A DNA stretch of 64,000 nucleotides, from assembly GCA_030295235.1 (NCBI GenBank), contig AP026128.1:682001-746000 (forward strand), in the 5' to 3' direction. A model generated the notes under the pieces. It made no database searches. It saw only the letters and a program-made list of their open reading frames with translations, and was not told the DNA's origin. A program made the translations under genes and the position numbers. The first letter of the stretch is position 1. Each line of letters opens with the position of its first letter. The DNA comes from Fistulifera solaris (taxonomy: Eukaryota). Below are positions 49,151-61,742 of the stretch, piece by piece.

Positions 49151-49296
49151 TTTGATGTGCAAAAGAAGATCGCGCATTGGATCGAAGAAAACGTTCAACA
49201 AAAATTGATGATGTATCATTGTTGCACTTCATCATCTTTCATTTATGAATCAAACAACCAATTAAAAATTTACTTTCTTCTACGGTATCAGAAAAT

Positions 49297-51156
49297 ATGA
49301 CGATATTGAGGATCATTCTTTGTGCACTACTTTGTCTTGTCGTGTTCAATTCAACTGTCGATGCTTCCGTCGAAGAATGCCCCGCGCCGAGCTCGATGTT
49401 CGAAGCAATGGATAACGACGAAAGTGACGAGAGAAGGAGGATTGCGCAACAAGAGGTCGAATGTGACTTGTACTTGGCTGAGTCAACTATTCCCGGCGCT
49501 GGGCTAGGGATATTTTCCGCTGTTGAGAAAAGACCGGGTGACAAGGTCGGGCATGGAGATGTTTGTATTCCGGTCATTGATCTGTACTGGCATAATTACA
49601 ACTTGGAACCAAACCCTCTCAAGGATTACTTCTGGGCGGGGAAAGCGATGGGAATGCACACAGAGACTGCGACGGAAGATAAGGAGGCATACTGTCCAGG
49701 ACTGGATTGTGCTATTAATTGTCACCTCGGTCTCATCAATGTGGGAAAGTCAACTCCTCAGTACGATGCCGATGCCGGTGATTCCAGTACTCCCTACCAC
49801 AATGGTACAACGGAAGTAACACGGTATATTCCAGCTGGAGGAGAGCTATTCAAATTTTACGGAGATAGTTGGTTCGTATCACGAGAACGGATCTTTGGGA
49901 AGATACCCTTGTCGGGGAGCTATGACATTGCTATGAAAATACTAAAATCCCTCAGAAGGCTCCCGTTTGACGACTCGCTTCATGAAGCCATTTTTGATTT
50001 GATTCATAAAATAAATACTGGGCCTTTTGAATCCCGACAGCTCAACGCATTTCCACCGACGTGGCAACAAGTGAAAGACGCTATGAAAATCGATGACTTG
50101 GCCAGTTGGCAGCAACCACAACACACTCGGTCCGTCGACTGGCTGAAAGACAACGGTCGATGCATCGATCACATTCGGCCGGGAAGATCAGAAATTGCTG
50201 GTCGCGGTGCCTTTGCTACTCGTTTCTTGCCAAGAGACACTATCATAACGACTTCTCCTCTTCATCACTTTCCCGACAACAACGTGATGAAACTCTATAA
50301 CATTACGCTCTACGACGGAGATTGGATACGACTTGTTGATGAGGTAGTGGGACAACAACTACTGGTAAATTATTGTTTTGGTCATCATGAGTCGACGCTC
50401 TTGCTTTGCCCCTACGGCTCTGGAGTGAACTACATCAACCACAGCCGGGAACCCAATGTCAGGATCCAATGGGCTACGACTTTCGAGGCTGCACACAATC
50501 ACGACATTGTTACCCAGGGAACGATTGAAAGTTTCAAGGATAAGAAACCAGTTGTTGCTTTCGACTACGTCGCGATTCGTGATATTCAAGAAGGCGAAGA
50601 ATTATTCATCGACTACGGCGATTCATGGCAACAGGCATGGGAGGATCACCAAAAGAATTTCAAAGTACCTGACACTTCCATGTTGGCGGTTAAATACAAC
50701 GAATTGGTTGAGGATACACCGCTTCGAACTGTAGAGGAGCAGCGGCATGACCCATATCCATCCAATCTGCAGATGCGATGTCACAAAGTGCTGGTGTATG
50801 GAAAACAGAAGAAGGGTCTAGACTTCCGTCGATACTTGTGGCAGGTTACCGATTATGGAGAATCTTGTCGCGTACTGGAACGATTCGAAGAAGAAGGCGT
50901 CATTTGGTACACAATCGAAGTGGAAGTGTGGGATGCTCGCAAAGATGAAGACAGCACGAAACGAGAAGCCGAGTTACCAGCGGATACCGTTACGCAGCTC
51001 ATCCGAACCGACGTTCCTCGGTCAGCCATTCGGTTTTTCGATATACCACAGACAACTCCGGTCTATGCCCAAGACGCTTTTCGTCATTTCATTGAAGTCC
51101 CCGACGACTTGTTTCCGAAGCAATGGCGGAACCTCGTCCAAACCAACGCTTCATGA
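49297..51156 (+). CDS. Signal-peptide-bearing tandem SET-domain protein (diatom BacSET-like)
   Basis: Signal peptide MTILRIILCALLCLVVFNSTVDA. SET1 LYLAESTIPGAGLGIF...GGELFKFYG. SET2 SEIAGRGAFATR...NYINHSREPNV...IQEGEELFIDYG. Confidence 0.8.
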   Translation: MTILRIILCALLCLVVFNSTVDASVEECPAPSSMFEAMDNDESDERRRIAQQEVECDLYLAESTIPGAGLGIFSAVEKRPGDKVGHGDVCIPVIDLYWHNYNLEPNPLKDYFWAGKAMGMHTETATEDKEAYCPGLDCAINCHLGLINVGKSTPQYDADAGDSSTPYHNGTTEVTRYIPAGGELFKFYGDSWFVSRERIFGKIPLSGSYDIAMKILKSLRRLPFDDSLHEAIFDLIHKINTGPFESRQLNAFPPTWQQVKDAMKIDDLASWQQPQHTRSVDWLKDNGRCIDHIRPGRSEIAGRGAFATRFLPRDTIITTSPLHHFPDNNVMKLYNITLYDGDWIRLVDEVVGQQLLVNYCFGHHESTLLLCPYGSGVNYINHSREPNVRIQWATTFEAAHNHDIVTQGTIESFKDKKPVVAFDYVAIRDIQEGEELFIDYGDSWQQAWEDHQKNFKVPDTSMLAVKYNELVEDTPLRTVEEQRHDPYPSNLQMRCHKVLVYGKQKKGLDFRRYLWQVTDYGESCRVLERFEEEGVIWYTIEVEVWDARKDEDSTKREAELPADTVTQLIRTDVPRSAIRFFDIPQTTPVYAQDAFRHFIEVPDDLFPKQWRNLVQTNAS

Positions 51157-52592: not shown

Positions 52593-53782
52593 ATGATACG
52601 GTTGCGTCCCTTCCAACAAAGGCTCCTGTCGACTGCGGTGGCGGTCGAGTTGCCCATCCAACACAGCCGGAAACAACTTCCCCCCGTTTGCACAGATCCG
52701 GTGCAACTTAAGGAAATGACGAGCGAAATACTTCAGGCACCGATGGGTTCTCTATTCTCTTATGACATGCAAGTCACGCAGAAAGATATCGATCGACACC
52801 GTGACGAAGCGTGGAACAAGGCCGATTTGACCGTACAAAAGTAGAATTTCTTCTGCGGGGTCACGCGGCCGGCATCGAGGGCACCATCTGGAACCGTTGG
52901 CTGGAACAAAAAGCAACTCATGATGATTCTAAACCGATGCAAAGTTTGCTGGATCGAATATGGCGAGAAGGGCAGGTGTACATGACCATACGAACGCAGC
53001 GTATGGAAGAGCTATTCGGGCAGGAAGAAGACAACGAGGAAGATTTAGAAGGTATTCACAAAAATATTGAAGAATTAGCTAGAACGGGAACGCTCGAATA
53101 CGATGGATCTAGTAGTGAAAGTGAAAGCGATAGTGATTCATCCAGTGATGAGGAGGATCCAACTGCTTCGTACGATAACGAATTTGCCTTCCCTGGACCA
53201 ACCACTGCCATGTACGAGACAGTGCTTGATTCATTGGCATGTCAGGGCCGTGTGATTCACGCCAGCTGGGATCTTTTGCAAGATGTGCTCGGAAGACATA
53301 ATCTTGATGGGGGAGATGAGTTCAATACAAATGAATTTACTCGTCCATCGGTGCTGTGCTTCAACGCTCTGATTCGAGTCGCAGCCAATCAAAAATATGA
53401 TGCTAAGAAATCAGATGTACAGGACCGCGATCATGCGCTTCTCCTGGCCTTTCAGTCATACGATGCTCTCAAGCAATGTAAACTGGTGGAAGCGAATAGT
53501 GCCACTTATTGTTATCTGCTCCAGACTGTGTCCAAATACTTTCCGCCCTCGAAAAGCCGAGGGAATATCGCGCACGGGATGTGGCATCAGGCTTGTACGC
53601 AAGGCTTGGTGGATGATTCGGTTATTCAAGCTTATTTAGATGTCAATAGCCCGAGTAATGGAAGCGAATTTGACGAGTACATCAAGAATCATTTGGAAGG
53701 AAAAACAAGAAAGTCGGTTCCACAAAAGTGGACGCAAATGAGCCGAAAGCTAAGACATGATCCCAAAGATGCTTTCTATTAG
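52593..53782 (+). CDS. Probably mitochondrial helical-repeat (PPR-like) protein; frameshift near 52830
   Basis: Presequence-like MIRLRPFQQRLLSTA. PPR-like units PTTAMYETVLDSLA, PSVLCFNALIRVAA and ANSATYCYLLQTV. Confidence 0.55.
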
Positions 53783-53899: not shown

Positions 53900-56733
53900 C
53901 TAGCGTTGGGTTAGACGAGTGATCAAATCTGACTTTTTCCCAGAGACCGAGAGTCCTCTCTTTCGCAGCTCATCTTTTAACTGGGCAACGGTCATGGCGG
54001 AAAAGTCTACGACTGGGCTCTCTGGTACACTTTCCTCGATCTCCCAGAATGCACCTTTTTCGCTTTCCTCAATCTCCATCAACGCTTCGTCGGACGGTTC
54101 TTCATCGGGGTCGAATCGTAATGATATTTCACGAGTTGTCCGTGCTAGTTGCTCTTGATCGATTTCGTTTTCGTCGTCTTCATAAATTTCATTTACTTCA
54201 TTCTGTCGAGAAAACTCAAACGCCTCCAAGGCGGCAATAAGATCGGCTCTTTTTCCTTTTGTGGAGAGACCTCTTGTACTTAGTTCCCCTCGTAGTTCGG
54301 CTAAACTCATTCCATACCAATCTGTTGTTTCTTCGTTTTCAGATTGCGCAAACGATTCAAACTGAGTTTCTTTTCGGCCAGCTTCTGTGAAAACCTCAGA
54401 TTCAAACATTTCTACAGCCGCCCGGGCTGCTGCTGCAAGCGCCTCTTCGTCAAACTCGTCGTCAAGATCCGGATATGTCTGATCAGATAGCACATCAAAC
54501 ATATCCTTTGATTCTTCAAGTGGCGTGATTTCTTCATCGTTGTCGACATCCATATCATTTTCATCAAACAAATCAATACTATACATCTCCACAGCTGCTC
54601 TAGCAGCTGCAGCAATGTCGTCCTCGAAGCTATTCACTTCAGTGTTCTCCGCCCATAGTTCCTCATCGCTGAGTGAATCTGTTGAGCTTAAAGAAGCAAA
54701 GGATTCAAGTCTAGCGATAAGCTCAGATTTTTTCCCTGCTGTAGCCAGTCCTCTGCGGTTTAATTCTTCTTTTAGCTGAACCACAGTAAGTTTTGCCCAT
54801 TCTGCTCCCCCCTGCAACTATCTCATCCTCTGCATTGCCCTCGTTCACCATAATTCCTTCTCCTTGGACGTCAGATTCCTCCAATCTCGTCACAAGATCA
54901 GCCTTTTACCGCGAATAGGAAGACCGCGAATTGAGCATTCTTCGCGAAGCTTTGCTACCGTCATCTTCATGTAGTTGGAGCCGACCTCCGCAGTTATGTC
55001 ATTTGTCATTTGAGAGTTCCACTCGCTGCGTGTTGCAAGTTTCTCTTTTGTCATTTCATCCTGTAGCTCTTCGTAACTGTCAACGGCGGCTCGTGCCGCG
55101 GCCGCAAGGTCCTCGATGTCCAGTTCATCCTCGTCATCATCCATGACATCAGACAACGAAGATGCTAGTTTCTCCGCGGCATTCCATTCCGCTTTCTCGT
55201 CCTCGTCCGCCATTGCTTCCGCTAAGTTAGCTATTTTCGCTTCTAAGCTCTGTTGCGCTGCACGAATTGAAGCCTGCCAATCATCGTCGCTAAAATCATC
55301 ATCAAAAGCGCGTCCTCATCTTCTTCAAGAAGCGCCGCTTCCCTTGCTTCCTGTTCCGCGATTAATGCATCTTCAGCTAGCTTCTTCTTCGCACGTGCGA
55401 TCTCTGCCAATCGCGCTTCTTCCACAAGACGGGCTTCTTCGGCCACTCTCTCCTGCTCAATTCGTGCCTCTTCCGCTAATCGCGCTTCTTCCGCTATGCG
55501 TTCCCGTTCGACACGCGCTTTTTTCTGCTCGTTGAGCCTCTTCTGCGGCTCTCTCCTCTTCCATTCGTGCCTCTTCTGCCATCCGTGCTTCTTCTGCAAT
55601 GCGCGCCTGCTCAATACGAGCTTGTTGCGCGATTCTCGCCTGTTCAGCACGAGCTTCTTCTGCTAGTCGCGCTTCTTCTGCAAGTCTTTCCTTTTCGATT
55701 CGGGCCTCATCCGCCAAACGAGCCTCTTCGGCTATTCTTTCCTCCTCTAGTCGCTTTTCCTCGGCAATTCTCGCCACCTCCTCTAATCGAGCTATCTCAA
55801 TACGCTTGGCTTCTTCTAATCGAGCAGCCTCTAGCGCAAATCTTTGTTTATCCAGCGCTTCATAACGGAATCGTGCTTCCATGAGGGATCTAGATGCTAA
55901 TTCTGCTTTCCTCTGAGCAGCTTTCAACGCTGCTTTTTGTTTATCACGAGTTTCGTAGCGAAAGCGGGCTTCCATCAGCCATCTCGCTGTTAACTCCACT
56001 TTTGCCGACGGCGCAATTCCTGTTCTTTTGCTTCGGCTTCCATCCGTCTTTCTCTTTGTAATCTTCTTTGCTCCGTAATGGCAGAAATCGCAGCTGGGAG
56101 TACGGATTTATCCATCTTGAAAAGCAAATCAGATGTAGCTTTTGCAGCATCAAAACTAAGACTTCCCAGTAAACGAATGACATTTCCCGCCGCGCCTGGT
56201 AAAATTGCTGCCACGGCTCCTCCTACGCTGGCGACACCGGCTGTGACGATCCCTTTCCCTCCAATGGCTCCCAATATAGCTGCCGCCAAAGCTGCGCCCT
56301 GGATTGTTTTCGCCGGAACTCCTTTTTCAAAATCCGTGGCGGCGAGACTTTTGATCCACTCCCCAAATTGTGTCACGACGGTGCGGGCATCATCTTCCTC
56401 GAGTCGCGCCACCAACGTTTCTTTCGGGCCATCCGTGGGCAAATCTCGACTGGAAAGCTCTTCGCGCAAACTGCGTTCGGTAAAATCTTCCCATTTCAAT
56501 TCGTATGTCTCGCGCTCTTGAATGAAAAATAGTTTGTCGGGTGGCGTCTCGGGCGGGGACGGTTTTCGCCGAGGGTCTGACGCGGGAGGCCGCGGAGAAA
56601 ACCGGCCTTGTGGGTCACTGCGCAACGGCGTACGTCTCGGAGGACGATATAATTGGCTTTGTCGATTTTGAAACGCAGCTGTATTTGATATTAGTAGCCA
56701 ACACACGGTGGCGAATTGAATGAAAGTTCTCAT
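53900..56733 (-). CDS. Plastid-targeted multi-SAP-domain protein with a hydrophobic segment and an (E/A/R)-rich coiled coil; about five frameshifts
   Basis: Signal peptide + TAA-FQ. Five SAP-like motifs (e.g. LTVVQLKEELNRRGLATAGKKSELIARL and MTVAQLKDELRKRGLSVSGKKSDLITRL). AEEARL repeats. Five abutting same-strand ORFs. Confidence 0.7.
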
Positions 56734-57364
56734 GAAGAAAGCGGTCCCCTCTGAAACTCGTCTCTGTATTGTTGTATGCGTCTACTGCACTCTTCCGGCT
56801 GAAACTAGGTAATCTTCTTTGTCGATGCTGGCATGCCCAAGCCGTTTTGGCTGTTACAGTTCTTACCTCTCTCTTATGAATTGATAAAGGATGGAAGCTT
56901 TGTCATTCCAGCGTCAGCGCTCACAAAAACAACAGTTTTGTTTTCAAACTTGAAATGGCTGTCCTCGATCCTTGATCTTGGACTTGGATCGGCAACTGGT
57001 TTTTCTACTTCCCTCTCCACAGTCATTATGCTGTCCGACAGGTACCGGATGACATCATGATCTTTCTTCAACGACAAAACGGAGACTATCCCCACTCTTA
57101 ATGATAATGAATTCTTTAGGGCCGAGAACATTACCAACGGTCAAGTCTGCCGGATATTTAACGTTCATTTGCTTAAATTAACACTAAAGCCAATACTGAC
57201 GGATGAATCTTTGGTCACTTAGAGGATTGGAACTGCATGCTTGCAAGTGGCGAAAGCGCAACGGATATGATGTGGACGTAAAAAATATCACACCGCAAGA
57301 TTGCATTATTTCCTTGCCCCTGGAATGATACAGTTTGACGACTTGTAAACTCGTTGCAAGGAGA

Positions 57365-58326
57365 ATGACATCAACGATGTTACTTCATATCTTATTGCTA
57401 TCATTCCTCGCTATCCCCGCCGCTCATGGACAGGGATGCACGCTTTGTGCGGACGGATCGGAGCCGAGCGGGACAATTGGTGCGGACGATTGCGCGGTCC
57501 TCGCGGAGCAAGCCTTGGCCAATGTTCCCAGTATTTCGAGTATTTGCACGGATCTACAAACCAGAGGCTTCCAATATTGCAATTGCCCGACACTTCCGGA
57601 GGGTGCTAGTTGCTCGCTGTGTGCCGATGGCTTTTTCGAAATTGATAATCCGAATCGCGCAATTCCCACCTTCAACACAACCTGCGGAGATGTCCTTTTT
57701 CGGTCGAACCCGAACAGTGTCAGCGCAATGTGCGGGCACAGTACTATTGTGGATGTCCCGAAGCTGTCCCGTCCACGAATTGCTCGCTCTGTCCGCTGGA
57801 TCCGGAAGCGTTTGCACCGGATCAAGTCCTTTCGAATCCCGATCGCCGAGTACCTCCTACATTTGAAAATACTTGCCAAGACTACGATGATGCCACATCC
57901 ATGTTCGACGAGGAGACTTGCGGGCAGTTGTCCGAGAATTTGCCGATTAATCTGTCGGGCTACTGTGGTTGCCCCGCTGGGGATGCTTCCTCCGAAATCT
58001 GGTGTACGCTCTGTCCGGAAGGAAGCCCCGTCAAGACCGATACAGTGGCCTCTACAGCGGGAGGTTTTCAGCAAACCTGCGGCGACATGGCGACGGTGGC
58101 GGAATTTGTGACGGATCAACAATACTGCGACTCCCAAATCGTTTCATTGCGAACGACGTGTTGCGAAGGACAAACCGAGAGTCCGACCGGGGCGCCCGTG
58201 GGTTCGCCACCGACCAGCGAGCAAACGAGTCCGACCGCCGAAACACCCGTATCCGAAAGCAGTGGAGCTTCGCATGTGTTGACTTGCTTTGTGTGGGTGC
58301 TAGTCGCTCTTTGGTGGACGTTGTAA
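57365..58326 (+). CDS. Secreted Cys-rich repeat protein with a predicted GPI anchor; frameshift near 57700-57725
   Basis: Signal peptide ending AAHG. Four C(T/S)LC(A/P)xx...TC...YCxCP-type repeats. S/P/T stalk (ESPTGAPVGSPPTS). SSGA followed by a hydrophobic C-terminal tail. Confidence 0.75.
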
Positions 58327-58463: not shown

Positions 58464-61352
58464 CTAGTATTGCATCTCAAGGATAGCCAATAGGCATGTC
58501 GTTTCCATGATGGACTTGAGGTCATCGGGGCCAAGTACAGACTCAATTTTGTCTTTCTCGCTGGAAACAATATTCAACAATTCGATGCCCCGGTTCGCCC
58601 AGTACTTTGGCGATACGGCAGAATCCAAACCTGCACTCGTCTCGTCCAAAATTTGTAGTGCCGTCTGGCGTTTCTGTTCCAATTGCAGGGTTAGATCGTC
58701 CAAGGACTCGGCCATCCATTCCGCAGTCGACGAGCATACGCTCTGACACAATTTGACGATACCGGGGATGAGATTTGATCTTAAAGTTCCGAGCTCGAGA
58801 AGCCGCTTCGTATCGGCATCGTTCTCAAGTACAACCTCGTCCTCCGTAACGAGCCAACCACCGGGATGTTCCAGAACTTCGCGAAGAGCTGACTGAGCGG
58901 CATTGGCAGCTGATACGACGTTGCCACTCACGTCGCGCTTCTGCGAAATCAGCTGACGGTGTTTCTCCCTTCGTGCGATTTCAAGCTCCTTACTGTTCAA
59001 CCTGCTTTCATCAAATGTGTTAGCACCGACAGGTGTTGTTGTCGCAGAAGTTGTCTTCACATAGTTCCACTGGTTGTAAGCATTTAAAGCATTGAAGTAT
59101 GCTTTAAATGCGATAAATTCAGAGTGGGCTTGTTTCATTCGTAATCGCTTCACTTCTTGATCGACCGCAGTAACTTCAACCGCTTCTAGAATCTCAACAA
59201 ACTTGGACACGTTGTCAAGAATTTCGAGTGAAAGATCGTTGATAAAGGTATTCGCGCTAATCGTTTTATCAGCCAACAGAAACTGACGCAGCAAACGATT
59301 TGCAGCAACCAAGGCTTCAGCGCAATGTCGATCATCGAAATTGAGCCAGTCCACGGCCTTCATCTTGAGGAGATCATTCGGAGTTACATTTTTCGGGTCT
59401 ACCGATTCGTCTTCTTCCTCAAAAATGATAGAAACAACTCGCTTCAGAACATCCGAGTCCCAGTCGTTGCCAGGAAGAAGTTCACGGAGTTGGCGGACGA
59501 CAACCTCTCTTTCCTGCGGGCTTTCTATAGATGTCAAGTACATTGGAAGTGTTTCGAAAATAAAGGTGTCCGGTAGAAGAGAAGCGTACAATACAATCAT
59601 GTACCAAAGATCTTCGCGGGAGGCAAGATGTTCCACATAACGGCTCAACAACTCATTCTTCCATTCAGTAGAACCGTCTAGTGATGTCTGATTGATCGAA
59701 GACGAGAAAGAATCAAGGTAGAGAGCTAGGTGTGTCAAAAATCGGAGACTTGAATCGTCCACTACCTTGCTCATGGCTTCCGACATGAACTGCGAAATAG
59801 ATTCTCTGCCAATAATGAAGCTAGCGATTGCCCGTTCGATAATACCAGTACCCTGCATGCATTCGAAAGGGGCGATCTTGAGAATATGAATGACATCCGT
59901 TTCATTCCATCCAGCGACTTCAGTAGTGCTTCTCAGATAAGCCGATTCGACTTCCTCGTGTTCTGCAACGGGAAAGTAGGGTATCATTCGACGGCGATTG
60001 TTATTGCGAAGATGTAACAAATCGTCTTCGGTGCGATCCAGCATCGCTCGAATGGTCGCGTAAAGGCCGTGCTGCCAGGTTCGACACGAAGCATTGCTTA
60101 GCGCCACAGATAAATTCGATGAAAGCAGCGCCGAAATCGCGGTTTCTTCAGCTAACCCACCCTTCTGCTCGGAGAGCTTTTCCGCTTGAATCCACATCAT
60201 TCGCTTCCAAAGAAAGCGACGCGGGTTACCCGTCGATGCACCGTCCTCCGGCGCGCCACCACCCCAAACGGCAGCTCTCCAGGGAATTCCACTATTACGG
60301 GCCAACGATTTTGCGTCAGCGAGACGACCAGAAAGAATGAGCCCCAAAGCGTTTTTCAGTATTTCTGCATCTTTGTCGGTTTCTGGCAAGCCTTCCCGTG
60401 TAAGCTTGGTATTAATAATGTACTTTGTCTTGCGCGGACGTGTGGCGTCGTCGGGCAGCACATCTTCGAAACATTTCTCTAACCATGTGAGAATGCGCTG
60501 ACGTCGCTTTAAGACCAATGGACATCCTGTCCCATTGCAGTACAGTACATCCAAGAGTTCCTTATCACTGCGTTTGATGAAACTAGCTTGGCTTTCCAGA
60601 TACGATGAGATGATGTTATTGTAGCTATGCAAAGCCGACTGACTGTCATCCCAAAGCAACGAGGTAGTTCCTTGTTGACGCAGGAAATACAAAAGCAGCC
60701 AAAAGTTTCCTTCCTTACGAAAGGAGTCATCGACCGCATTCGTAGATCGATCCCAGCAGGCATAGTTCAATGCACGGAGGAAATCCAATTCAACCTGCGT
60801 TTCGTCCTTGATCAATTTTTGGTCGACTTGCGAGTCTGATCCTTCATTCTCGTCGACAATTATCATGGCGTCTTGCAGAAGTTCGGCTTTTTCGTTTTGT
60901 AAAGCCATGCGCTCACTCAAGCGGCGACGATCGCGAAGGTAGGTCAGAGAAGCATCGTAGTATCGCTTATAATCCGTGTGCGAGCTTTGGAAGGAAGGGT
61001 TGCTGCGACGAATAATAGGAGTCGCATCTTTTACTGATCGAGATACCCACGGAGATTGAATGTCGTGAGGAACGTAGTCATCCTCATCTTCCATCTTGTC
61101 GTCTTCCGTCCAATTCGGATCCGAGTTCATACTAGCAGCTGGCGTGTCCATACGCTTCAGTAAGCTCAGTGCAGGCGTTGCGGGAGCAGGAGCAAAGCTG
61201 ACATGCCGATCATTTGTATCCTCTTCCATCAAATAGCGATTCGTATCCTCTTCAAAGCTACGACGTCCTTGGCGTCCCGTGTGTTCGAAACGAGGTGATT
61301 GCCAACGGTCAATCTCAGCCGAAATTTTGGCTGCCTCATCTTCGTAATCCAT
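58464..61352 (-). CDS. NUP107: Nucleoporin Nup107/Nup84
   Basis: Intact 962-aa ORF with EGNFWLLL, ILTWLE, LILSGRLADAKSLARNSGIPWRAA, GNPRRFLWK, ETAISALLSSNL, TWQHGLYA and LRFLTHLALYL. Confidence 0.85.
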   Translation of the reverse strand: MDYEDEAAKISAEIDRWQSPRFEHTGRQGRRSFEEDTNRYLMEEDTNDRHVSFAPAPATPALSLLKRMDTPAASMNSDPNWTEDDKMEDEDDYVPHDIQSPWVSRSVKDATPIIRRSNPSFQSSHTDYKRYYDASLTYLRDRRRLSERMALQNEKAELLQDAMIIVDENEGSDSQVDQKLIKDETQVELDFLRALNYACWDRSTNAVDDSFRKEGNFWLLLYFLRQQGTTSLLWDDSQSALHSYNNIISSYLESQASFIKRSDKELLDVLYCNGTGCPLVLKRRQRILTWLEKCFEDVLPDDATRPRKTKYIINTKLTREGLPETDKDAEILKNALGLILSGRLADAKSLARNSGIPWRAAVWGGGAPEDGASTGNPRRFLWKRMMWIQAEKLSEQKGGLAEETAISALLSSNLSVALSNASCRTWQHGLYATIRAMLDRTEDDLLHLRNNNRRRMIPYFPVAEHEEVESAYLRSTTEVAGWNETDVIHILKIAPFECMQGTGIIERAIASFIIGRESISQFMSEAMSKVVDDSSLRFLTHLALYLDSFSSSINQTSLDGSTEWKNELLSRYVEHLASREDLWYMIVLYASLLPDTFIFETLPMYLTSIESPQEREVVVRQLRELLPGNDWDSDVLKRVVSIIFEEEDESVDPKNVTPNDLLKMKAVDWLNFDDRHCAEALVAANRLLRQFLLADKTISANTFINDLSLEILDNVSKFVEILEAVEVTAVDQEVKRLRMKQAHSEFIAFKAYFNALNAYNQWNYVKTTSATTTPVGANTFDESRLNSKELEIARREKHRQLISQKRDVSGNVVSAANAAQSALREVLEHPGGWLVTEDEVVLENDADTKRLLELGTLRSNLIPGIVKLCQSVCSSTAEWMAESLDDLTLQLEQKRQTALQILDETSAGLDSAVSPKYWANRGIELLNIVSSEKDKIESVLGPDDLKSIMETTCLLAILEMQY

Positions 61353-61742
61353 CCTTTCCAGAACTATGTCGACAAAGTGATAAACGAGTGCAAATTGCTG
61401 AAGATGTAATAGTATATCAGAAGAATGGATGCTTTACATCTCTTGGTTTTGTGTCCATGCGGTCGCAGTCGCAGAGATTGCGCATTGCGCACAGCACCGC
61501 GTGTTTTGCGTGTTTTGCGATTGTTTGCTGGAGGGGACAGAAGGACAGGGTGAATGATAGTTAGTCATGAGTCCCTAATGAGTCGCGAACGACTGAGTCA
61601 CATCAAAAAAGTTCGTTCGATTTTTTTTCTTTTTCCTTGCTCATCGCACATCATCGCAGATCCGGCAGATCGCATTGATGGGCTTCTCTATCGTCTGAAC
61701 TAGTTGTATTGACCATTTTCATCAAGCAAGATAAGATTACGA

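What the first reader, a model, noticed from the sequence alone, without database searches (positions are those of the whole stretch)
53900..56733. Plastid-targeted, membrane-anchored five-SAP protein: candidate nucleoid-to-membrane tether
Seen: five abutting minus-strand ORFs read as one ~940-aa protein. The order is signal peptide + TAA-FQ transit peptide, SAP1 (FTERSLREELSSRDLPTDGPKETLVARL), a Gly/Ala hydrophobic stretch (~56180-56300), a duplicated LMEARFRYE motif and a ~200-aa AEEARL-type coiled coil. Four more SAP motifs follow, interleaved with acidic linkers carrying a repeated AAAARAAV(D/E) motif (three copies plus the degenerate LARTTREI). Knowledge: SAP domains bind DNA or RNA; plant plastid nucleoids use a SAP protein (pTAC3) and a membrane-anchored coiled-coil protein (MFP1). 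Inference: this may be an undescribed architectural protein organising the diatom plastid nucleoid.
Basis: partly seen in the sequence, partly recalled or inferred. Interest (0 to 1): 0.72.

Follow-up and report, generated by a model that had tools for sequence, protein, structure and literature searches.

The report
Diatom plastid membrane-hairpin SAP protein family
This diatom gene, broken only by sequencing errors, encodes a chloroplast-directed protein that joins a conserved membrane-type hairpin to several DNA-binding-type SAP modules, and it is an untested candidate for holding the ring-shaped chloroplast DNA of diatoms against a membrane.

Summary
Six frame segments (five one-base breaks, all in homopolymers) form one gene of about 945 codons. 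Independent contigs correct three breaks directly, the sister copy in this genome lacks two, every segment is under purifying selection (dN/dS 0.13-0.28), and intact relatives exist. All five SAP motifs pass Pfam; SAP1 is degenerate.

The gene belongs to an unnamed family of about 150 distant proteins, defined by a Gly/Ala helical hairpin with no Pfam or PDB match. 91 of 151 carry 1-6 SAPs, 87 of those ending in one, and most complete members have a plastid-type presequence.

Corrections: the long helix is single-alpha-helix-like, not a heptad coiled coil; the hairpin is only moderately hydrophobic; the protein is strongly acidic; there is no homology to pTAC3 beyond SAP; MFP1 is a weak analogue.

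Best reading (0.45): a stroma-facing, membrane-inserted adaptor tethering plastid DNA, beside a separate plastid HU. Rivals: RNA/transcription adaptor, non-nucleic-acid scaffold, soluble nucleoid protein. Location, membrane insertion and DNA binding are untested.

The parts
53900..56733 (-). Whole coding sequence, about 945 codons, in six frame segments
   Evidence: dN/dS 0.13-0.28 in the assigned frame of each segment against the sister copy L002, 0.9-3.7 in the other two frames
56674..56733 (-). Signal peptide (residues 1-20), cleavage TAA-F
   Evidence: home-made test; F also at +1 in L002 and P0014
56554..56673 (-). Transit-peptide-like basic, Pro/Ser/Arg-rich stretch
   Evidence: 6 K/R versus 1 D/E in the first 25 residues after cleavage; net +7 over residues 1-50
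56398..56493 (-). SAP1, degenerate (core net charge -1)
   Evidence: Pfam PF02037 31.5 bits, 34.6 bits; charge; dN/dS 0.06
56098..56382 (-). Family-defining unnamed domain: amphipathic helix, GVP turn, two short uncharged helices (56257-56304, 56200-56253), then an amphipathic helix with near-invariant G, R, G (56143-56199)
   Evidence: 151 representatives by profile search; column conservation R 100%, G 98%, G 99% of 156 domains; AF2 pLDDT 80.9; dN/dS 0.02; hydrophobic moments
55859..55978 (-). Two LMEARFRYE motifs (55952-55978, 55859-55885); the motif is repeated many times in the SAP-less paralogue L043
   Evidence: found in only 12 of 151 family members by a strict pattern
55327..55852 (-). 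AEEARL-type charged helix, single-alpha-helix-like spacer
   Evidence: period 5.7, not 3.5; 46 i,i+3 and 28 i,i+4 opposite-charge pairs in 180 residues; 33-nt indel between the two copies
55163..55288 (-). Conserved Trp-containing helices (DWxAS..AQ at 55253-55288; W(D/N)AA..LA at 55163-55189)
   Evidence: family consensus; strict patterns in 16 and 35 of 151 members
55079..55102 (-). AARxAV amphipathic helix motif, copy 1
   Evidence: A, R, A, V conserved at 90% or more in 86 SAP-bearing members
54880..54973 (-). SAP2, crossed by the break near 54905
   Evidence: Pfam 30.8 bits for positions 1-25; 44.3 bits over the whole motif with X at the break on a local profile
54704..54799 (-). SAP3
   Evidence: 48.0 bits; net +3
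54587..54610 (-). AARxAV motif, copy 2
54410..54433 (-). AARxAV motif, copy 3
54224..54319 (-). SAP4
   Evidence: 40.5 bits; net +2
54068..54148 (-). Degenerate AARxAV copy (54125-54148) and conserved EPxxxL element (54068-54100) before the last SAP
   Evidence: EP pattern in 40 of 151; the degenerate copy was not found by the motif profile
53912..54004 (-). SAP5, C-terminal, the most conserved and most basic SAP
   Evidence: 58.5 bits; net +4; no amino-acid change between the two copies; 87 of 91 SAP-bearing members end in a SAP
55995..56005 (-). Break 1: one-base assembly error in an A run
   Evidence: absent from L002; corrected at full depth in runs X1 and X2
55515..55526 (-). Break 2: one-base assembly error in an A run
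   Evidence: absent from L002; corrected at full depth in X1 and in one of two X2 contigs
55299..55309 (-). Break 3: one-base assembly error in a T run, shared with L002
   Evidence: corrected at full depth in X1 and X2
54900..54910 (-). Break 4, in an A run inside SAP2, shared with L002
   Evidence: indirect: X2 record 10 spans 54038-55082 with exactly 2 gap letters, places not displayed; selection continues on both sides
54803..54814 (-). Break 5, in a G run, shared with L002
   Evidence: indirect, same X2 record

Best explanation
A nuclear-encoded diatom plastid protein that works as a membrane-to-DNA adaptor. (1) The bipartite presequence takes it through the four plastid membranes into the stroma [inferred from sequence, conserved in the family]. 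(2) The short Gly/Ala hairpin and its flanking amphipathic helices insert from the stromal side into a thylakoid (girdle lamella) or the inner envelope, leaving both ends in the stroma [inferred]. (3) A charged single-alpha-helix-like spacer of variable length holds the C-terminal part away from the membrane [composition shown, role inferred]. (4) Basic SAP modules, one of them always terminal, grip plastid DNA without sequence specificity; extra SAPs add avidity [SAP identity shown, binding inferred from CreCNS and pTAC3]. (5) The AARxAV helices between SAPs bind a protein partner or each other [co-occurrence with SAP shown, role inferred]. It would position the nucleoid rather than compact it: it is strongly acidic and the genome has a separate plastid-directed HU.
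For: One gene. SAPs pass Pfam and match solved SAP folds; terminal SAPs are net-basic in 99% of 86 and internal ones in 93% of 68. Presequence test passed by 50 of 92 members versus 53 of 1840 shuffles. Hairpin is the most constrained part (dN/dS 0.02), uncharged over about 33 columns apart from one loop position, modelled as two helices of 15-17 residues between amphipathic helices. SAP and hairpin occur together in 91 of 151 family members; 16 of 91 have a SAP on the N-terminal side of the hairpin too, which fits a topology with both flanks in one compartment. Plastid-type HU in the same genome. Precedent: CreCNS SAPs localise to nucleoids and bind DNA non-specifically (PMC4758235). Diatom plastids have a ring nucleoid (PMC6492006), associated with girdle lamellae in chromophytes (10.1101/632240).
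Against: No experimental location, membrane or binding data were found. Hairpin hydrophobicity is moderate: family medians 1.55 and 1.31, with 58 of 147 and 19 of 156 reaching 1.6, and P0003 has no window above 1.2 there. SAP number varies from 1 to 6 and 60 of 151 members have none (many are fragments, but 23 are long). SAP1 of this gene is net-acidic. The protein is acidic overall (pI 4.5; 89 of 91 SAP-bearing members net negative). The closest solved SAP folds include RNA-binding (3'-exonuclease with histone mRNA stem-loop) and protein-binding (CDNF with BiP) cases. At least three other genes of this genome put a SAP on a plastid-directed protein of unrelated type. The hairpin is also used without SAP (L043, L051).
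Confidence: 0.45

Rival explanations
1. Gene-expression adaptor at the membrane: the SAPs bind RNA, ribosomes or DNA at the plastid RNA polymerase, coupling transcription or translation to thylakoids, and any nucleoid location is secondary.
For: pTAC3 and the four-SAP Chlamydomonas PEPS1 are polymerase subunits. RNA-binding SAPs are among the fold matches. Membrane association of plant nucleoids follows transcription (PMC11252823). Another plastid-directed SAP protein of this genome carries tRNA-synthetase anticodon-binding modules.
Against: No similarity to pTAC3 outside the SAP motif (E 0.14, SAP columns only). Core and peripheral plant polymerase subunits are described as soluble. Beads-on-a-string model, pTM 0.32, shows no large folded docking region.
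Confidence: 0.22
2. Membrane scaffold or membrane-shaping protein in which SAP and AARxAV helices are protein-binding modules; nucleic-acid binding is incidental, as happened with MFP1.
For: The hairpin, not SAP, is the family core; SAP-less relatives exist in this genome (L043 with two hairpins, L051) and form a separate supported clade of 14 domains. MFP1, first described as nucleoid-binding, positions starch-granule initiation (PMC10801857). A SAP-like fold binds BiP in CDNF.
Against: Terminal SAPs keep basic residues at K97%, R90%, R81%, K100%, R100%, and 87 of 91 SAP-bearing members end in one, which is hard to explain as incidental.
Confidence: 0.13
3. Soluble stromal nucleoid protein like CreCNS; the hairpin packs against a partner protein or itself rather than entering a membrane.
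For: Moderate hydrophobicity and short helices; near-invariant G, R, G suggest a specific packing or binding surface.
Against: About 33 consecutive columns almost free of charge, flanked by amphipathic helices; the domain model has no globular core to bury them (pTM 0.55).
Confidence: 0.12
4. Not stromal: an ER, periplastid or nuclear-envelope protein working like LEM/HeH chromatin tethers.
For: It has a signal peptide; relatives score weakly to HeH/LEM and Ish1 profiles; in related algal classes the outer plastid membrane is continuous with the nuclear envelope.
Against: F, L, W or Y follows the cleavage site in 57 of 67 members with a signal-like start. SAPs occur on both sides of the hairpin in 16 of 91, which a single-pass topology would split between lumen and nucleoplasm.
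Confidence: 0.06
5. Separate genes or a pseudogene.
For: Both genomic copies are broken; three breaks are shared; two breaks have only indirect correction; no transcript was seen.
Against: Three breaks corrected by short-read contigs of two studies; all in homopolymers and selection in frame on every segment; intact five-SAP relatives P0003, P0033, P0117; the neighbouring gene is broken the same way and intact in L002.
Confidence: 0.02

Closest known systems
CreCNS (Cre15.g635650) of Chlamydomonas, probably the same protein as PEPS1
   Same: Plastid-directed, several SAP domains; SAP region localises to nucleoids and binds DNA non-specifically (PMC4758235 passages and section 28; 10.64898/2026.06.23.732312 passages). 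That CNS and PEPS1 are one protein is my inference from size (about 280 kDa) and four N-terminal SAPs.
   Different: CNS has its four SAPs at the N-terminus and a large polymerase-binding body; here SAPs are mostly C-terminal behind a hydrophobic hairpin and a charged helix. Green lineage versus secondary red plastid. Sequence homology outside SAP was not tested.
pTAC3 / PAP1 of land plants
   Same: Plastid SAP protein associated with nucleoids.
   Different: Polymerase subunit; the family profile matches it only over the SAP columns (E 0.14-0.16).
MFP1 (and PEND, TCP34, pTAC16) of land plants
   Same: General plan of N-terminal membrane anchor plus long stromal helix (PMC10801857 passages); listed as candidate nucleoid-membrane binders (PMC11252823 passage).
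   Different: MFP1 has a Tat signal, one short transmembrane domain and a coiled coil, and its demonstrated role is starch-granule initiation. This protein has a two-helix hairpin, a non-heptad helix and SAP domains. No sequence comparison was possible.
LEM/HeH inner-nuclear-membrane tethers (Heh1/Src1, LAP2, Ish1)
   Same: SAP-like helix-extended-helix module joined by a long linker to a membrane anchor (architecture recalled; Pfam HeH and Ish1 hits).
   Different: SAP scores far above HeH (221.9 versus 44.1 bits in P0003); plastid-type presequence; different membrane domain.
Pfam SAP domain PF02037
   Same: All five motifs pass the curated cut-off.
   Different: Only names the module; the hairpin domain and AARxAV motif have no Pfam family.

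Membership tests
SAP domain (PF02037) | Score above the curated cut-off of 23.9 bits | tested here: met
   34.6, 30.8, 48.0, 40.5, 58.5 bits
SAP domain (PF02037) | Two-helix SAP fold | tested here: met
   On relative P0058: pLDDT 92-98 over SAP blocks; Foldseek probability 0.98-1.00 to solved SAPs but E 0.3-0.8; profile match to Tho1 SAP E 5.5e-12
SAP domain (PF02037) | Basic surface for nucleic-acid binding | tested here: inconclusive
   SAP2-5 net +2 to +4, SAP1 net -1; charge is not binding
Diatom stromal plastid proteins (bipartite presequence) | Signal peptide, then F/W/Y/L at +1, then a basic transit peptide (rule recalled from ASAFind) | tested here: met
   Home-made heuristic, not SignalP/ASAFind: window passes; 50 of 92 members versus 53 of 1840 shuffles
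Diatom stromal plastid proteins (bipartite presequence) | Observed location in the plastid | not testable with these tools
   needs GFP or proteomics
CreCNS/PEPS1 | Several SAP domains behind a plastid presequence | tested here: met
CreCNS/PEPS1 | Four SAPs clustered at the N-terminus, about 280 kDa | tested here: not met
   one N-terminal and four C-terminal SAPs, about 106 kDa; CNS described
CreCNS/PEPS1 | Sequence homology outside SAP | not tested
   no CNS sequence was available from a tool
pTAC3/PAP1 | Homology over the polymerase-binding body | tested here: not met
   only SAP columns match 8qma_E and 8w9z_D
MFP1 | Long heptad coiled coil | tested here: not met
   period 5.7, negligible signal at 3.5 over residues 291-470
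MFP1 | Tat signal and one transmembrane segment | tested here: inconclusive
   two short moderately hydrophobic helices; no Tat predictor was run
Integral or monotopic membrane protein | Segments hydrophobic enough to insert | tested here: inconclusive
   19-residue means 1.44 and 1.78 in the window; family medians 1.55 and 1.31
LEM/HeH nuclear-envelope tethers | HeH (PF12949) above its cut-off as the best family | tested here: not met
   window HeH 15.9 bits against a cut-off of 28.9; where relatives pass, SAP is far higher
DnaJ-domain proteins (database name of the Seminavis relative P0014) | DnaJ domain | tested here: not met
   Pfam finds only SAP-type families in P0014

The most novel reading that the evidence does not exclude
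The family is the dedicated tether that holds the ring nucleoid of diatom plastids on the girdle lamella or envelope: a LEM-like chromosome-to-membrane link built independently inside a secondary plastid from a eukaryotic SAP module and an unnamed membrane hairpin, with the AARxAV helices oligomerising it along the rim.
Probability: 0.3. Interest if true: 0.8.

Novelty: new variant of a known kind. Interest (0 to 1): 0.52.

Why it matters
Diatom plastid DNA forms a ring at the organelle rim (PMC6492006, PMC2110427, 10.1101/632240), and how plastid DNA is recruited to membranes is called unknown even for plants (PMC11252823). Nine literature searches found no protein described for the diatom ring. 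This family offers one concrete, apparently single-gene candidate per subgenome that can be tagged and knocked out, and it defines an unnamed, strongly conserved hairpin domain. If it proves to be an RNA adaptor or a scaffold, it remains an undescribed family of more modest interest.

Tried and rejected
Introns as the cause of the breaks: all five are in homopolymers and the only joint in the contigs was the 33-nt deletion of the sister copy. Expression: no RNA holder listed; run X1 covers the flanks as deeply as the gene and has a 24-kb record, so I did not treat it as transcript evidence. Pfam on the hairpin: nothing near a cut-off. PDB sequence search with the hairpin: best E 1.1. Fold searches of the hairpin model: best Foldseek E 1.9, best VIA Z 4.9, none at 5 or more; the weak top rows are mostly membrane hairpins and carry no weight. 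ESM Atlas: no usable hit. Word-index protein searches with the hairpin found only P0003/P0005 or nothing. Prokaryotic genomes: no close relative of P0079 (finds close relatives only). Hairpin homodimer prediction gave no verdict. Taxonomy of the family could not be obtained; only P0014 (Seminavis robusta) and P0012 (Attheya sp.) carry names. The hairpin tree was the quick tree on 86 columns and is mostly unresolved. The idea that diatoms lack HU was rejected: a plastid-type HU is present. The name 'dnaJ domain-containing' on P0014 was rejected.
Full report

2. The modules. All five SAP motifs pass the Pfam cut-off individually. SAP1 is degenerate (core net charge -1), SAP2-5 are basic (+3, +3, +2, +4). 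The presequence passes a home-made signal-plus-transit test (the F/W/Y/L rule is recalled from ASAFind, which I could not run). The AEEARL tract has its periodicity at 5.7 residues and almost none at 3.5, with many i,i+3 and i,i+4 opposite-charge pairs; this fits a single alpha-helix spacer (a class recalled from memory) better than a coiled coil. A similar, longer tract occurs in an unrelated plastid-type protein on the same chromosome pair (L003), so it is not diagnostic.

3. The family. A profile of the Gly/Ala region from four sequences found 151 proteins at E up to 0.001 among 1.84 billion 50%-identity representatives, 150 of them listed. My working set was those 150 plus P0012. With a local SAP profile, 91 of 151 carry SAP domains: 37 have one, 37 two, 5 three, 8 four, 3 five, 1 six; 60 have none, many of them fragments, 23 with 250 or more residues after the hairpin. 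Pfam confirmed SAP in 31 of 51 hand-picked members and found no other recurring domain. 87 of 91 end in a SAP, and 16 of 91 also have one before the hairpin. Of 92 members with a usable N-terminus, 67 look signal-like, 57 have F/L/W/Y at +1 and 50 also have a net-basic transit stretch, against 53 of 1840 shuffles. The AARxAV helix is found in 75 of 91 SAP-bearing members and 3 of 60 SAP-less ones (2 of the 23 long ones); its profile was built from this same set, so the figure is partly circular; 0 of 200 shuffles of the window's acidic region hit it. Only two members carry names, Seminavis robusta and Attheya sp., so 'diatom family' is an inference and its reach into other ochrophytes is unknown.

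4. The hairpin domain. It is the most constrained part (1 nonsynonymous against 18 synonymous changes). Over 156 domains, about 33 columns are nearly free of charge apart from one loop position, followed by G (98%), R (100%) and G (99%). AlphaFold2 gives an amphipathic helix, two helices of 15-17 residues and a further amphipathic helix, mean pLDDT 80.9, pTM 0.55. No Pfam family or solved fold matches. Hydrophobicity is moderate: 1.44 and 1.78 in the window, family medians 1.55 and 1.31, and P0003 has no window above 1.2 there. A re-entrant or monotopic hairpin fits better than two full membrane spans, but this is not shown. The same genome uses the domain without SAP: a plastid-type paralogue with two hairpins and many repeats resembling LMEARFRYE (L043/L044), whose domains fall in a 14-row clade without SAP (support 97, quick tree), and a small protein with no signal peptide (L051; hhalign probability 93.8). 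A full-length model of relative P0058 is beads on a string (pTM 0.32).

5. How it most likely works. Shown: one gene, SAP identity, conserved coupling of hairpin, AARxAV helix and terminal SAP, conserved plastid-type presequence. Inferred: import into the stroma; insertion of the hairpin from the stromal side, which keeps SAPs on both flanks in one compartment; non-specific DNA binding by basic SAPs at the end of a variable spacer; partner or self binding through AARxAV helices. The strong acidity argues against compaction, and a nuclear HU gene with a plastid-type presequence is present, so positioning is the more likely role. I put this at 0.45. Against it: SAP folds also bind RNA and protein; of 38 SAP matches in this genome, 10 belong to this gene pair, and among 21 other SAP loci examined, 15 gave a readable frame and 4 of these, from three genes, have a plastid-type start, among them a CysS_C-repeat protein and a hydrolase-like protein. 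SAP is therefore a recurrent accessory on diatom plastid proteins. Rivals: membrane-side RNA or polymerase adaptor (0.22), scaffold with incidental SAP (0.13), soluble nucleoid protein (0.12), ER or nuclear-envelope tether (0.06), pseudogene or separate genes (0.02).

6. Comparison with known systems. CreCNS of Chlamydomonas has four SAPs that suffice for nucleoid location and bind DNA non-specifically (PMC4758235; passages and section 28 read). PEPS1, a 280-kDa four-SAP subunit of the Chlamydomonas plastid polymerase (10.64898/2026.06.23.732312; passages), is probably the same protein (my inference). pTAC3 matches only over the SAP columns. MFP1 is thylakoid-anchored with a stromal coiled coil, but its demonstrated role is starch-granule initiation (PMC10801857; listing and passages). 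How transcribed plastid DNA is recruited to membranes is stated to be unknown (PMC11252823; passages). Chromophyte plastids have a peripheral DNA ring (PMC2110427; abstract) associated with girdle lamellae (10.1101/632240; passages), and diatoms have a ring nucleoid (PMC6492006; passages). So it works like a multi-SAP plastid nucleoid protein with an added anchor, but is not a member of the CNS, pTAC3 or MFP1 families on the features tested.

7. Novelty. Searches of open PubMed Central and bioRxiv full text listed no paper on a diatom plastid SAP protein or on this family; most hits were seen as listings only. Subscription papers and supplements were not searched, and diatom plastid proteome tables could list an orthologue by identifier. 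The scan's own notes hold nothing on this family apart from a different plastid SAP protein. Verdict: a real, apparently undescribed family with an unnamed domain and a testable link to the ring nucleoid; function unproven. New variant of a known kind, interest 0.52.

Noticed in passing
L043:2128-5544 (+) and L044 (G000 C9/C10): SAP-less paralogue of 1138 aa with a plastid-type start, two copies of the hairpin domain and many repeats of an R-x-x-(L/M)-M-x-x-R-F-x-L-E helix motif; no Pfam match. An intact form of the L044 copy appears to be P0100.
   Followed up: partly
L051:1384-1809 (-): Small protein (142-aa frame) without signal peptide that is a distant relative of the hairpin domain (hhalign probability 93.8); suggests a wider unnamed Gly/Ala-hairpin superfamily.
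   Followed up: partly
L052:1222-1779 (+), L053: Nuclear-encoded HU (PF00216, 101.8 bits) with a plastid-type presequence: the likely compacting protein of this diatom's plastid nucleoid.
   Followed up: partly
L003/L004 (G000 C14 about 1.318 Mb, C13 about 1.373 Mb): Plastid-type protein with an extremely long AEEARL tract; no hairpin or SAP hit in the fetched stretch.
   Followed up: no
L021:61-1605, L016:1090-2649, L033: Three other SAP proteins with plastid-type starts: CysS_C repeats plus SAP; SAP plus dienelactone-hydrolase-like domain; and a protein with a C-terminal SAP. L009/L010 have a mitochondrial-looking start.
   Followed up: partly
window 57329-58326 (+): Secreted-type cysteine-rich repeat protein gene, frameshifted in the window and intact in the sister copy (L002:4994-6013); no Pfam match for its second half.
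   Followed up: partly
window 58464-61433 (-), 49249-51156 (+), 52805-53782 (+): Neighbours: Nup84/Nup107 nucleoporin, a SET-domain protein with a signal-like start, and a convergent gene of unknown family ending 118 bases from the SAP gene's stop.
   Followed up: no
P0014: The Seminavis robusta relative is named 'dnaJ domain-containing protein' in databases but has no DnaJ domain by Pfam.
   Followed up: yes
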